From Escherichia coli 042 (GTDB lineage Bacteria > Pseudomonadota > Gammaproteobacteria > Enterobacterales > Enterobacteriaceae), in assembly GCF_000027125.1 (NCBI RefSeq), contig NC_017626.1: a stretch of 64,000 nucleotides of DNA; one strand, 5' to 3'. The position numbers were made by a program, and so were the translations under genes. Each line of letters starts with the position of its first letter. Within the stretch, counting starts at the first letter, position 1. Shown in pieces: positions 12,747 through 47,526 of this stretch. The notes below the pieces were generated by a model that saw only the letters and a list, made by a program, of their open reading frames with translations, was not told the origin of the DNA and did no database searches.

Positions 12747-12823
12747 GCGCCCTTAGCTCAGTTGGATAGAGCAACGACCTTCTAAGTCGTGGGCCGCAGG
12801 TTCGAATCCTGCAGGGCGCGCCA
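12747..12823 (+). tRNA. argU: tRNA-Arg (anticodon UCU)
   Basis: 77 nt sequence gcgcccttagctcagttggatagagcaacgaccttctaagtcg...ttcgaatcctgcagggcgcgcca with acceptor stem, D-loop, UCU anticodon loop, T-loop and CCA. Confidence 0.9.
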
Positions 12824-44383: not shown

Positions 44384-45511
<1,128 letters not shown>

Positions 45512-45855
45512 TTATGTTGGCGTTTTCTATTCAGTATAGAAGTCGGAGCGGCTGGGCGAGATGCGGAAGTTCTGGAATGCTTCTTTTTTTTGGTGATGGT
45601 GAACTGATTGTGACTGAAGAAGTTTGGCTACTTTTGCAATGTGACAAGTTATGGCAGAGCTGGCTGGTGGCGAAGAATTTTGACGATTGAGGCATGCAGA
45701 AAAATACGGGTTCAGCTTCAGTTGATCAAATGAGGAGTGAGAAGTCCGAAACAGGACTCACTGTATAAATAAACAGCTATTTTGCTGAAGAAGGGTAAGA
45801 TAACGGCGGGTGCCTGAAGCTTTCCGGTTTCAGGTTTACTCTGAGGTCTGGAAAG

Positions 45856-46044
45856 ATGAAGCCCCAGGACGATATTTCTATCAACCCTGGGGCTGCCACT
45901 CCAAACCCAAACAATTTGGATGGTAGTCCCTTCTTCGCATGGAGGCAATATAAACATGCTGACGAAATATGCCCTTGTGGCTGTCATAGTGCTGTGTTTA
46001 ACGGTGCTGGGATTTACGCTTCTGGTCGGAGACTCGCTGTGTGA
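45856..46044 (+). CDS. mokE: mok-like overlapping reading frame of hokE copy 1
   Basis: 62-codon ORF overlapping the hok start in another frame, as in hok/mok/sok loci. Confidence 0.45.
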
Positions 46045-46108
46045 GTTTACGGTGAAGGAACGTAATATTGAGTTTAAGGCTGTTCTCGCTTACGAACCGA
46101 AGAAGTAG
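45956..46108 (+). CDS. hokE: Hok-family small membrane toxin HokE, copy 1
   Basis: [50 protein letters not shown], 50 aa, within ORF 45920..46108. Confidence 0.85.
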
Positions 46109-46243
46109 CCGTTGTGCGGGGAGTAATCCCCGCATATCCGGTTGTCAGGTCAGGGTGGTAAGGCACCTGCTTTACACTTTCGCCCGCGGTCAGCAATGGC
46201 TGCGGGCGATTTCGTTTTACGAACAATAACGAGCGTTGCCAAC

Positions 46244-46711
46244 AGAAGTCCGAAACAGGACTCGCTGTATAAATAAACAGCTATTTTGATAAGGAAGGGT
46301 AAGATAACGGCGGGTGCCTGAAGCTTTCCGGTTTCAGGTTTACTCTGAGGTCTGGAAAGATGAAGCCCCAGGAGATATTTCTATCAACCCTGGGGCTGCC
46401 ACTCCAAACCAGACAATTTGGATGGTAGTCCCTTCTTCGCATGGAGGCAATATAAACATGCTGACGAAATATGCCCTTGTGGCAGTCATAGTGCTGTGTT
46501 TAACGGTGCTGGGATTTACGCTTCTGGTCGGAGACTCGCTGTGTGAGTTTACGGTGAAGGAACGTAATATTGAGTTTAAGGCTGTTCTCGCTTACGAACC
46601 GAAGAAGTAGCCGTTGTGCGGGGAGTAATCCCCGCATATCCGGTTGTCAGGTCAGGGTGGTAAGGCACCTGCTTTACACTTTCGCCCGCGGTCAGTGATG
46701 GCTGCGGGCGA
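46244..46711 (+). repeat. hokE locus tandem duplication, copy 2
   Basis: Near-identical to copy 1 apart from two 1-bp indels in the mok leader region and a few substitutions. Confidence 0.75.
46458..46610 (+). CDS. hokE: Hok-family small membrane toxin, copy 2 (identical protein)
   Basis: Same 50 aa Hok peptide; here part of a longer in-frame ORF 46314..46610 because upstream indels merge the mok leader with the hok frame. Confidence 0.8.
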
Positions 46712-46731
46712 ATCGTACCAGAAGTTGTCAA

Positions 46732-47352
46732 TTAATCGTGTTGGCACAGCGTTATGACTATCTTTTCTTTTATCTGCCAGTGCACAGCAAACTGCTCATC
46801 CTCTAGTCGAATGATGATCCGCTGTTTATTCCAGCTAATTATCTGATAATCCAGAAAACCTTGAGCGGCCTGTATCTTGCTTGCCTTAAATGCGCTCTCT
46901 TTGGCGGAAAATGCCAGTGTCAGCGCCAGAGAAAAGGTTAAACCGCATTCTGCGAGTCGCTCGTGTTCTGCTGGTGTAATAATGTTGTCTGTCAATTCTC
47001 TTGCGGTTTGTACAGAGAAAATCTCTTCGATATCAATGCCAATCGGTTGACGAGATACCACGGCTAATGCCGTAGTCCCGCAGTGGCTAATACTGCCGTA
47101 TACCTCCGCAGGCCACACAGGTTGGCGTAGCTCGCCGATAGCGGGCACATATTTATAGCCATATTCCCGCAAGGCATAAACAGCAGCGATTCGTCCAGCT
47201 AAATGCTCTGTTTTACGTTTACGTCCAGCGTGTTGCAGTTGTGCGTAGTGTGGCAGCCAGAGTAAATCCTGCTCGCGAAAACTCGCCGGATCGAACTCAA
47301 CAAAATGCAGCGTATGTCCGGCAAAGGGGAGGGCGGTATGCGTAGTTTTCAT
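46732..47352 (-). CDS. entD: enterobactin synthase phosphopantetheinyl transferase EntD
   Basis: ORF 46732..47502 trimmed to MKTTHTALPFAGHTLHFVEFDP start (206 aa). Confidence 0.9.
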   Translation of the reverse strand: MKTTHTALPFAGHTLHFVEFDPASFREQDLLWLPHYAQLQHAGRKRKTEHLAGRIAAVYALREYGYKYVPAIGELRQPVWPAEVYGSISHCGTTALAVVSRQPIGIDIEEIFSVQTARELTDNIITPAEHERLAECGLTFSLALTLAFSAKESAFKASKIQAAQGFLDYQIISWNKQRIIIRLEDEQFAVHWQIKEKIVITLCQHD

Positions 47353-47383: not shown

Positions 47384-47490
47384 AAAACTGCCTGATGCGC
47401 TACGCTTATCAGGCCTACATGGTCCTGCAATATATTGAATTGGCAAGATTTTTGTAGGCCGGATAAGGCGTTCACGCCGCATCCGGCATG
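47384..47490. repeat. REP/BIME elements between fepA and entD
   Basis: Two REP-type palindromes gcctgatgcgctacgcttatcaggcctac and tgtaggccggataaggcgttcacgccgcatccggca. Confidence 0.6.
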
Positions 47491-47526
47491 AACGACGCGC
47501 ACTTTGTCAACAATCTGACGTTAGCA

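What the first reader, a model, noticed from the sequence alone, without database searches (positions are those of the whole stretch)
45739..46711. Tandem duplication of the hokE toxin locus; IS186 absent; mok and hok frames fused in copy 2
Two direct copies (~505 bp period) each encode the identical 50 aa Hok peptide. In K-12, as I recall, hokE is single-copy and followed by IS186 (insL), which is not present here. Copy 1 has the usual arrangement with a mok-like ORF overlapping hok in another frame. In copy 2, two 1-bp indels in the leader (gacgat to gagat; cccaaac to ccagac) place the upstream ORF in frame with hok, giving a 98-codon ORF. Because Hok translation normally depends on coupling to mok, copy 2 may be regulated differently or inactive.
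Basis: partly seen in the sequence, partly recalled or inferred. Interest (0 to 1): 0.55.

Follow-up and report, generated by a model that had tools for sequence, protein, structure and literature searches.

The report
Common tandem pair of hokE toxin loci
The window carries two complete, adjacent copies of the SOS-linked hokE/sokE toxin-antisense RNA module, an arrangement already annotated and present in about 44% of complete E. coli genomes, and the reported "fused 98-codon ORF" is an artefact of ORF calling, not a mok-hok fusion.

Summary
The duplication is real. Two hokE units (45740-46209 and 46244-46711, about 98% identical) lie between ybdK and entD, separated by a 34-nt spacer. Each encodes the same 50-aa Hok. 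There is no IS186, unlike K-12.

It is also ordinary. The window is identical to E. coli 118UI, where RefSeq annotates two hokE genes. The tandem junction occurs in 2398 of 5426 complete E. coli genomes and in other Escherichia species.

Both 1-bp indels are confirmed, but they lie inside the antisense sokE gene, at a bulge and a hairpin loop of the hok leader. They are common population alleles that occur in all four combinations.

- The 98-codon ORF starts at a GTG that is nucleotide 3 of the predicted transcript.
- The real mok-like ATG in copy 2 (46360) opens only 22 codons.
- In-frame "fusion" of that ATG with hok is the state in K-12 and E. albertii. Copy 1's overlapping 62-codon ORF is one of three alternative states.

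Both mRNAs keep the same fold, including the 5'/3' end-pairing. Single-copy alleles look like recombinational collapses of the pair. Verdict: already known, low interest.

The parts
45740..46209 (+). hokE/sokE unit 1 (repeat copy 1)
   Evidence: Direct repeat families D1, D2 and D4; alignment A1; BLAST of the unit.
45761..45776 (.). LexA-type box CTGTATAAATAAACAG upstream of hokE-1, overlapping the presumed -35 region
   Evidence: Read from the sequence. The CTGT-N8-ACAG form is kept in all 23 units aligned; one unit (SCPM c2) has a substitution inside the N8. hokE is listed as a LexA-box SOS gene in PMC2826370 and PMC11228462.
45808..46219 (+). Predicted hokE-1 mRNA: 5' element 45808-45815 pairs with 46161-46168 (tac/fbi-like closure); terminator hairpin 46180-46209 followed by a T-rich tail
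   Evidence: Rfam RF01794 match 45808-45964, 82.4 bits against a gathering score of 59. Fold -172.1 kcal/mol, z -6.84. End-pairing invariant in 20 units. Terminator scan. The 5' end is inferred from the model and a TAAGAT -10 at 45796-45801.
45852..45912 (-). sokE-1 antisense RNA gene, mapped from the K-12 sokE annotation. Presumed promoter: -10 TACCAT (complement of 45920-45925) and -35 TTGCCT (complement of 45943-45948). Contains the extra C at 45870 and the CCC run at 45906-45908.
   Evidence: K-12 sokE coordinates mapped by alignment. Hairpin plus U-rich tail fold, z -5.2. The promoter was read from the sequence and was not found by the stricter consensus scan.
45856..46044 (+). mok-like ATG ORF of copy 1: 62 codons, overlapping hok out of frame
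   Evidence: ORF list; frame table; no NCBIfam match.
45956..46108 (+). hokE-1 CDS (50 aa). SD GGAGG at 45941-45945 pairs with CCUUC at 45929-45933. Tyr46 codon TAC at 46091-46093.
   Evidence: ORF list. RefSeq annotation WP_000956465.1 HokE. Hok-family HMM hits below cut-off. SD hairpin is columns 122-126/134-138.
46210..46243 (.). 34-nt spacer found only in tandem alleles. Its first 10 nt give copy 1 a T-rich terminator tail.
   Evidence: Alignments. No significant similarity to either flank. The junction query finds 2398 genomes.
46244..46711 (+). hokE/sokE unit 2 (repeat copy 2), with LexA-type box at 46265-46280
46312..46711 (+). Predicted hokE-2 mRNA, with the same architecture as copy 1. 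End-pairing is 46312-46319 with 46663-46670. Terminator hairpin 46682-46711 has no T tail.
   Evidence: Rfam RF01794 match 46312-46466, 83.7 bits. Fold -177.5 kcal/mol, z -7.75. Consensus structure.
46356..46414 (-). sokE-2 antisense RNA gene. It carries both 1-bp deletions and the A>G, so its 5' tail (GUCUGGUUUGG) differs from that of SokE-1 (GUUUGGGUUUGG).
   Evidence: Mapping from K-12 sokE; fold; duplex energies.
46360..46428 (+). mok-like ATG ORF of copy 2: only 22 codons. Its stop TAG at 46426-46428 lies 3 nt before the CCUUC (46431-46435) that sequesters the hok SD (46443-46447).
   Evidence: ORF list; frame table; structure columns.
46314..46610 (+). It starts at a GTG at transcript position 3 and is judged not to be a gene.
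   Evidence: ORF list; transcript start from the Rfam model. The same GTG frame is 38, 77 or 98 codons in other strains depending on the indels.
46458..46610 (+). hokE-2 CDS (50 aa, identical protein; one synonymous difference from copy 1). Tyr46 codon at 46593-46595.

Best explanation
This is a natural, old and very common tandem pair of complete hokE/sokE type I toxin-antitoxin modules in the ybdK-entD intergenic region of an extraintestinal E. coli.

Each unit carries:
- its own LexA-type box and promoter;
- a highly structured hok mRNA of about 400 nt whose 5' end pairs with a 3' element, the inert, fold-back form known from plasmid R1 hok;
- an antisense sokE gene with its own promoter, overlapping the leader;
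- a short upstream ATG ORF (mok-like);
- the 50-aa Hok pore-forming peptide, whose Shine-Dalgarno sequence is held in a local hairpin.

The two 1-bp indels that separate the copies lie inside the sokE gene, at a bulge and a hairpin loop of the leader. They are recombining population alleles, not private lesions of copy 2.

Inferred: what matters for Hok expression is that a ribosome starting at the upstream ATG reaches the CCUUC anti-SD arm. The peptide it makes does not matter, which would explain why the frame of that ORF drifts between three states. In copy 2 the 22-codon ORF stops 3 nt before that arm, so coupling is still plausible.

The 98-codon ORF is not expressed as such. Single-copy alleles (K-12, O55:H7, F11) are best explained as collapses of the pair by recombination between the repeats. 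In K-12 an IS186 insertion then cut the 3' fold-back element away.
For: Repeat structure and identity.

Identity of the locus: 100% match to strain 118UI with two annotated hokE genes between ybdK and entD.

Prevalence: the junction-specific 60-nt query hits 2398 of 5426 complete genomes at full coverage. Tandem pairs are also found in E. whittamii, Escherichia sp. MOD1-EC7003 and a further GTDB representative.

RNA features:
- Rfam hok-leader model hits both copies above the gathering score.
- Both mRNAs have the same fold with end-pairing, z -6.8 and -7.8.
- In the consensus of 20 units, the end-pairing and the SD hairpin are invariant, the indels fall at unpaired columns 63 and 99-103, and there are AU<->GC compensatory changes at columns 96/110.

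Frame states: all three ATG-to-hok distances occur among 23 units, and all four indel combinations occur. The exact copy-1 and copy-2 leader haplotypes are each found in hundreds of records, including O157:H7.

Collapse: the O55:H7 single copy equals O157 copy 1 in its 5' half and O157 copy 2 in its 3' half.

K-12: single hokE, annotated sokE, and IS186B with a target duplication inside the 3' UTR.

Literature: hokE is a LexA-box gene. Hok 'islets' arise by local duplication, and 13.5% of Escherichia chromosomal hok genes lie in islets. Tandem type I TA loci are described in general.
Against: - No expression data were available. Transcript ends, sok promoters and the use of the upstream ATG are inferred from homology, the K-12 annotation and folding.
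- The consensus promoter scan found no sigma-70 match in the region, so both promoters rest on weaker hexamers read by eye.
- The upstream ATG has a poor Shine-Dalgarno sequence (GGAAAG abutting the ATG).
- In K-12 hokE was not induced in one recent SOS transcriptome.
- Chromosomal hok loci have been reported as unable to mediate post-segregational killing, so either or both copies may be functionally silent.
- The origin of the 34-nt spacer is unexplained. The direction of change, pair to single or single to pair, is shown only for the O55/O157 lineage.
Confidence: 0.85

Rival explanations
1. Copy 2 is a decaying, translationally dead module. Truncating the mok-like ORF to 22 codons uncouples hok translation, leaving copy 2 as at most a source of extra SokE antitoxin.
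For: The ATG ORF stops 29 nt before the hok ATG. In plasmid R1, Hok translation depends on mok translation (established knowledge; summarised in PMC1635323). Copy 2 lacks a T tail after its terminator hairpin.
Against: - The same 22-codon state is the only hokE copy in O55:H7. It is copy 1 in O157 and both copies in MOD1-EC7003.
- The exact 74-nt copy-2 leader occurs in many genomes, up to 655 records.
- The Hok ORF, the SD hairpin, the end-pairing and the sok promoter are all intact and identical to copy 1.
- The stop codon lies 3 nt from the anti-SD arm, within reach of a terminating ribosome (inference).
Confidence: 0.25
2. The two copies have been driven apart at the Sok 5' tail and its target loop, so that each SokE preferentially controls its own hok mRNA. 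This would be insulation of paralogous modules by diversifying selection.
For: - The 20-nt segment at the Sok 5' tail and target loop has mean pairwise difference 0.19, against 0.038 for the whole unit.
- Non-cognate tail duplexes are 7-10 kcal/mol weaker.
- Sok recognises its target through its 5' single-stranded tail (Thisted et al. 1994, cited).
Against: - More than 50 nt of perfect complementarity remain between non-cognate pairs (-110 to -114 against -124 to -127 kcal/mol).
- In strain A5 the two copies have identical leaders.
- The same variants occur in single-copy genomes.
- The variable positions are loop nucleotides, so relaxed constraint explains them equally well.
Confidence: 0.12
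3. The duplication is an assembly artefact: a single locus that was wrongly expanded.
For: None found.
Against: - The two copies differ at several positions and are separated by a unique spacer.
- The junction is present in 2398 complete genomes from many laboratories and in three other Escherichia lineages.
Confidence: 0.01
4. Copy 2 makes a 98-aa Mok-Hok fusion protein.
For: An uninterrupted frame runs from GTG 46314 to the hok stop.
Against: - The GTG is 2 nt from the predicted 5' end, has no SD, and lies inside the end-pairing helix.
- The mok-like ATG is in another frame.
- The length of this GTG frame (38, 77 or 98 codons) simply tracks the indel state across strains.
Confidence: 0.02

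Closest known systems
hokE/sokE locus of E. coli K-12 (b4415/b4835), one of the five chromosomal hok homologues
   Same: - Same genomic site (ybdK-entD).
- Nearly identical Hok peptide (one residue differs).
- Same leader, sokE gene, LexA-type box and 3' elements; 98% DNA identity over the shared part.
   Different: - K-12 has one unit, here there are two.
- K-12 carries IS186B 18 nt after the hok stop, separating hok from its fold-back element and terminator. Here both units are uninterrupted.
- K-12's upstream ATG is in frame with hok (83 codons). Here it gives 62 codons out of frame in copy 1 and 22 codons in copy 2.
hok/sok/mok of plasmid R1 (parB), the paradigm type I toxin-antitoxin system
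   Same: - Hok-family peptide.
- Antisense Sok RNA overlapping the leader and the start of an upstream ORF.
- Strongly structured mRNA with 5'/3' end-pairing.
- hok SD sequestered.
- The Rfam hok-leader model matches both copies.
   Different: - Chromosomal, and preceded by a LexA-type box.
- The upstream ORF starts about 55 nt further 5' than R1 mok in the model alignment.
- Its frame relative to hok is not conserved.
- No evidence of post-segregational killing.
Tandemly repeated type I toxin-antitoxin loci (ldr/rdl, ibs/sib, zor/orz; Hok 'islets')
   Same: Head-to-tail repeats of whole toxin-plus-antisense modules in one intergenic region, variable in copy number between strains (PMC2887945; bioRxiv 10.1101/2025.08.07.668861).
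   Different: This is simply the hokE instance of that pattern. None of the papers read here names hokE specifically, but RefSeq annotates the two genes routinely.

Membership tests
Hok/Gef toxin family (hokE) | About 50-aa peptide with an N-terminal hydrophobic helix and the conserved Hok C-terminal part; homology to Hok proteins | tested here: met
   Both ORFs are identical to RefSeq WP_000956465.1 'type I toxin-antitoxin system toxin HokE'. NCBIfam Hok-family HMMs hit at E 2.6e-10 to 3.8e-13 but below the curated cut-offs, which are tuned for HokA and other subfamilies. There is one residue difference from K-12 HokE.
[quoted passage not shown] | cis-encoded antisense Sok RNA overlapping the hok leader, with its own promoter and terminator | tested here: inconclusive
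   The sequence is homologous to the annotated K-12 sokE in both copies. It folds as a hairpin plus U-rich tail with z about -5.2. A TTGCCT-17-TACCAT promoter can be read on the minus strand, but the consensus scan did not call it. There are no expression data for this strain.
[quoted passage not shown] | hok mRNA leader structure, and 5' (tac) / 3' (fbi) end-pairing that keeps the full-length mRNA inert | tested here: met
   - Rfam RF01794 scores 82.4 and 83.7 bits against a gathering score of 59.
- Nucleotides 1-8 pair with 354-361 in both minimum-free-energy folds and in the consensus of 20 units.
- These eight pairs never vary, so they carry no covariation support.
[quoted passage not shown] | An overlapping mok reading frame whose translation is needed for hok translation | tested here: inconclusive
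   An upstream ATG covered by SokE exists in all 23 units. Its frame and length are not conserved: 83 aa in frame (with one in-frame unit, F11, cut short at 17 aa by a stop), 62 aa overlapping, or 22 aa. Whether it couples to hok cannot be tested with these tools.
LexA (SOS) regulon | LexA box (CTGT-N8-ACAG) overlapping the promoter; LexA-dependent induction | tested here: inconclusive
   A CTGTATAAATAAACAG box is present in both units. The CTGT-N8-ACAG form is conserved across Escherichia; one unit has a substitution in the N8. hokE is listed as a LexA-box gene, but it was not induced by AZT in K-12. Induction in this strain was not tested.
Simple recent tandem duplication | A junction made only of sequence that flanks the single-copy locus | tested here: not met
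   The 34-nt spacer has no significant similarity to the upstream or downstream flank (shuffle p 0.47 and 0.76). The pair is present in several Escherichia species.

The most novel reading that the evidence does not exclude
In hokE the upstream 'mok' ORF works in a frame-independent way: any ribosome that reaches the anti-SD arm unlocks hok. The hypervariable Sok 5' tail and target loop is under diversifying selection, which partly insulates tandem paralogues from each other's antitoxin. A genome with two units would then carry two separately titratable SOS-linked toxin switches.
Probability: 0.12. Interest if true: 0.4.

Novelty: already known. Interest (0 to 1): 0.12.

Why it matters
It matters mainly as a caution. 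K-12, with a single hokE disrupted by IS186, is not representative: close to half of complete E. coli genomes carry two intact hokE/sokE units. ORF-level reasoning about mok is also unreliable at this locus, because the frame of the upstream ORF flips between three states within the species.

For specialists, two modest leads follow. The frame polymorphism and the local diversity peak at the Sok tail bear on how strictly Hok translation needs Mok, and on cross-talk between paralogous antitoxin RNAs. [quoted passage not shown]

Tried and rejected
1. Spacer origin. I suspected the 34-nt spacer was a diverged copy of the sequence downstream of copy 2, which would make the repeat unit 504 bp. Global alignment against 2000 shuffles gave p 0.76 for the window and 0.64 for the O157 type, so I rejected this.
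2. Counting tandem genomes from long queries. This failed because the tool joins the two query halves onto a single subject copy. I replaced it with a 60-nt junction-specific query.
3. Tandem Repeats Finder reports nothing, because the period slightly exceeds its 500-nt limit.
4. The consensus promoter scan found no sigma-70 site in 45500-46800. Both promoters are therefore read by eye and by homology only.
5. Pedersen & Gerdes 1999 and Gultyaev et al. 2000, which would define mokE and the hok-family RNA elements, are not held in the library. What I say about them is from memory or from citing papers.
6. Two paper searches for hokE/sokE/mokE were mostly noise.
7. NCBIfam gave no match for the 62-aa mok-like ORF or for the 89-aa antisense ORF.
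8. I looked for reciprocal monophyly of copy 1 and copy 2 sequences. It is rejected: trees for the 5' and 3' halves disagree and the copies are mosaics.

Full report
**What is in the sequence**

Between ybdK (44384-45502, minus strand) and entD (46732 onward, minus strand) there are two direct repeats with start-to-start spacing of 502-504 bp. A pairwise alignment shows the shared unit runs from 45740 to 46209 and from 46244 to 46711. It has two 1-bp gaps and a handful of substitutions, about 98% identity. A 34-nt spacer (46210-46243) separates the units and matches neither outer flank.

Each unit contains an identical 50-aa ORF, at 45956-46108 and 46458-46610. Both units match the Rfam hok-leader model RF01794 above its gathering score, at 45808-45964 and 46312-46466. 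Tandem Repeats Finder is silent only because the period is just over its limit. So the observation of a tandem hokE duplication with identical peptides is confirmed.

**Where it comes from and how common it is**

The 1.6-kb region is 100% identical to the chromosome of E. coli 118UI, a urine isolate. There RefSeq annotates two hokE genes (same protein, WP_000956465.1) between ybdK and entD.

A junction-specific query (13 nt of copy 1's end, the spacer, 13 nt of copy 2's start) finds a full-length match in 2398 of 5426 complete E. coli genomes, with up to three junctions per genome. These include O157:H7, O104:H4 and ST131 strain EC958.

An exact-pattern scan of one genome per GTDB species finds the tandem pair, in the same ybdK-entD context, in E. 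whittamii, Escherichia sp. MOD1-EC7003 and a further Escherichia representative. Single units occur in E. albertii and Escherichia sp. E1V33. The duplication is therefore an old, widespread polymorphism and not an assembly artefact.

K-12 has one unit, with IS186B starting 18 nt after the hok stop and a target duplication inside the 3' UTR. The fold-back element and terminator are thus displaced by 1.3 kb. The lack of IS186 here is the state in every one of the 14 other genomes I aligned, and K-12 is the only one carrying the insertion. Local duplication of hok genes into 'islets' is described in the literature: 13.5% of Escherichia chromosomal hok genes lie in islets. [quoted passage not shown]

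**Anatomy of each unit**

From the sequence, each unit begins with a small hairpin and a CTGTATAAATAAACAG box, at 45761-45776 and 46265-46280. This has the CTGT-N8-ACAG form of a LexA site. That form is kept in every unit examined across the genus, with one substitution inside the N8 in a single unit. hokE is listed among LexA-box SOS genes, although it was not induced in one K-12 data set.

A TAAGAT -10 lies 7 nt before the first base of the Rfam match, which I take as the transcript start (45808 and 46312). This is an inference.

The annotated K-12 sokE maps to 45852-45912 and 46356-46414 on the minus strand. Upstream of it on that strand I read TTGCCT-17 nt-TACCAT, overlapping the hok Shine-Dalgarno region. 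The stricter consensus scan did not call it. The predicted SokE RNAs fold as a strong hairpin with a U-rich tail and a free 5' tail, z about -5.2.

Both full-length hok mRNAs fold to the same architecture, with z-scores of -6.8 and -7.8:
- nucleotides 1-8 pair with AGGCACCU near the 3' end;
- a 5' hairpin;
- two leader hairpins under SokE;
- a local hairpin pairing CCUUC with the hok GGAGG;
- a terminal hairpin.

A consensus fold of 20 units from 14 genomes keeps all of these. The end-pairing and the SD hairpin are invariant, so they are uninformative for covariation. There are AU-to-GC compensatory changes at columns 96/110.

**The indels and the reading frames**

Both 1-bp differences and the adjacent A>G lie inside the sokE gene:
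- The C at 45870 is a bulge (alignment column 63).
- The second indel and the substitution lie in the loop (columns 99-103) of the hairpin that the Sok 5' tail targets.

The mok-like ORF of copy 1 starts at ATG 45856, which sits under the 3' end of SokE, and runs 62 codons out of frame into hok. In copy 2 the same ATG (46360) reads only 22 codons and stops at 46426-46428.

That is the third nucleotide of the predicted transcript, with no ribosome-binding site, inside the end-pairing helix. In other strains this GTG frame is 38, 77 or 98 codons long, simply according to indel state. It is a mechanical ORF and not a mok-hok fusion.

Across 23 units the ATG-to-hok distance takes three values:

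| Distance | State | Units | Examples |
|---|---|---|---|
| 99 nt | in frame with hok, 83 aa | 11 (one, F11, with a premature stop at 17 codons) | K-12, E. albertii, both E. whittamii copies |
| 100 nt | 62 codons, out of frame | 5 | copy 1 here |
| 98 nt | 22 codons | 7 | copy 2 here, O157 copy 1, the sole O55:H7 copy, both MOD1-EC7003 copies |

All four indel combinations occur, in copy 1, in copy 2 and in single-copy loci. The exact leader haplotypes of copy 1 and copy 2 each recur in hundreds of records. Those bins may include some partial matches. So 'fused in frame' is the reference and probably ancestral state, copy 1 is not 'the usual arrangement', and copy 2's state is a common allele.

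**How it most likely works**

Shown:
- Both units retain every sequence and structural element of a hok/sok module.
- The differences between the copies fall at unpaired positions.

Inferred from the R1 paradigm:
- The full-length mRNA is inert because of end-pairing.
- After 3' trimming, translation from the upstream ATG opens the hok SD, unless SokE binds first.
- LexA adds transcriptional control of hok.

Since the upstream frame is not conserved but the ATG, the anti-SD arm and the SD hairpin are, I infer that coupling needs ribosome transit and not a particular peptide. In copy 2 the stop codon lies 3 nt before the anti-SD arm (46431-46435), within the footprint of a terminating ribosome. 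Coupling there is plausible but unproven. I put about 25% on the rival that copy 2 is translationally dead.

**Evolution of the pair**

Copy 1 and copy 2 sequences are not reciprocally monophyletic. Trees of the 5' and 3' halves disagree, and within-genome differences range from 2 (strain A5) to 22 (O157) over 402 columns. This indicates gene conversion and recombination.

The single O55:H7 copy is identical in pattern to O157 copy 1 in its 5' half and to O157 copy 2 in its 3' half, including a chimeric Hok protein. That is the signature of collapse by recombination between the repeats.

Single-copy loci always have copy 1's upstream flank and copy 2's downstream flank, and they lack the spacer. 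The spacer's origin is unexplained.

**A possible lead**

The 20 nt at the Sok 5' tail and target loop show mean pairwise difference 0.19, against 0.038 for the whole unit. Non-cognate Sok-tail duplexes are 7-10 kcal/mol weaker than cognate ones.

This could reflect selection for insulation between paralogues. Relaxed constraint on loop bases fits equally well, for three reasons:
- more than 50 nt of perfect complementarity remain between non-cognate pairs;
- some genomes have identical leaders in both copies;
- the same variants occur in single-copy genomes.

I give the insulation idea about 12%.

**Verdict**

The feature is an already annotated, very common allele of a known system. Novelty: already known. 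Interest: low (0.12).

Noticed in passing
window 45718-45987 (-) and the equivalent 46340-46489 (-): RefSeq/PGAP annotates an 89-aa 'hypothetical protein' (WP_071592639.1) antisense to the hokE-1 leader, and a frameshifted pseudogene at the same place in copy 2. It has no NCBIfam match, and its frame breaks wherever the leader indels differ. It is probably a spurious call that propagates through E. coli annotations.
   Followed up: partly
window 46210-46219 versus 46712-46721: Copy 1's terminator hairpin is followed by a T-rich tail (TTTCGTTTTA) supplied by the spacer. Copy 2 and all single-copy loci, including K-12, have AATCGTACCA with no T run. The distal or only hokE transcript therefore lacks a canonical intrinsic-terminator tail and faces convergent entD.
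   Followed up: partly
window 46091-46093 and 46593-46595: The Tyr46 codon of both hokE copies is TAC in a UACG context. This is the kind of TadA A-to-I editing site (Tyr to Cys) that a recent preprint says applies to hokC, hokD and hokE at position 46. It is conserved in all units aligned.
   Followed up: no
window 45888-45915 / 46390-46417 (alignment A2 columns 88-107): There is a local diversity peak at the Sok 5' tail and target loop: mean pairwise difference 0.19, against 0.038 for the whole unit across 20 hokE units. A compensatory AU<->GC change occurs in the adjoining stem.
   Followed up: partly
E. coli genome collection; L006 3800-6300: Some genomes carry up to three tandem junctions (arrays of more than two hokE units), and two junction hits lie on plasmids. 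In strain CCUG 73778 the sequence right after copy 2 is not entD but SDR oxidoreductase and ABC transporter genes, so the hokE pair marks a rearrangement or insertion boundary there.
   Followed up: no
window 47411-47517: REP/BIME-like elements lie between entD and fepA: an ES036 (RF02751) match at 47411-47452 (-) above the gathering score, and a partial naRNA4 match at 47457-47498 (+) below it.
   Followed up: no
window 12747-12820 (+): A tRNA gene is the only other Rfam gathering-level hit in the 64-kb window.
   Followed up: no
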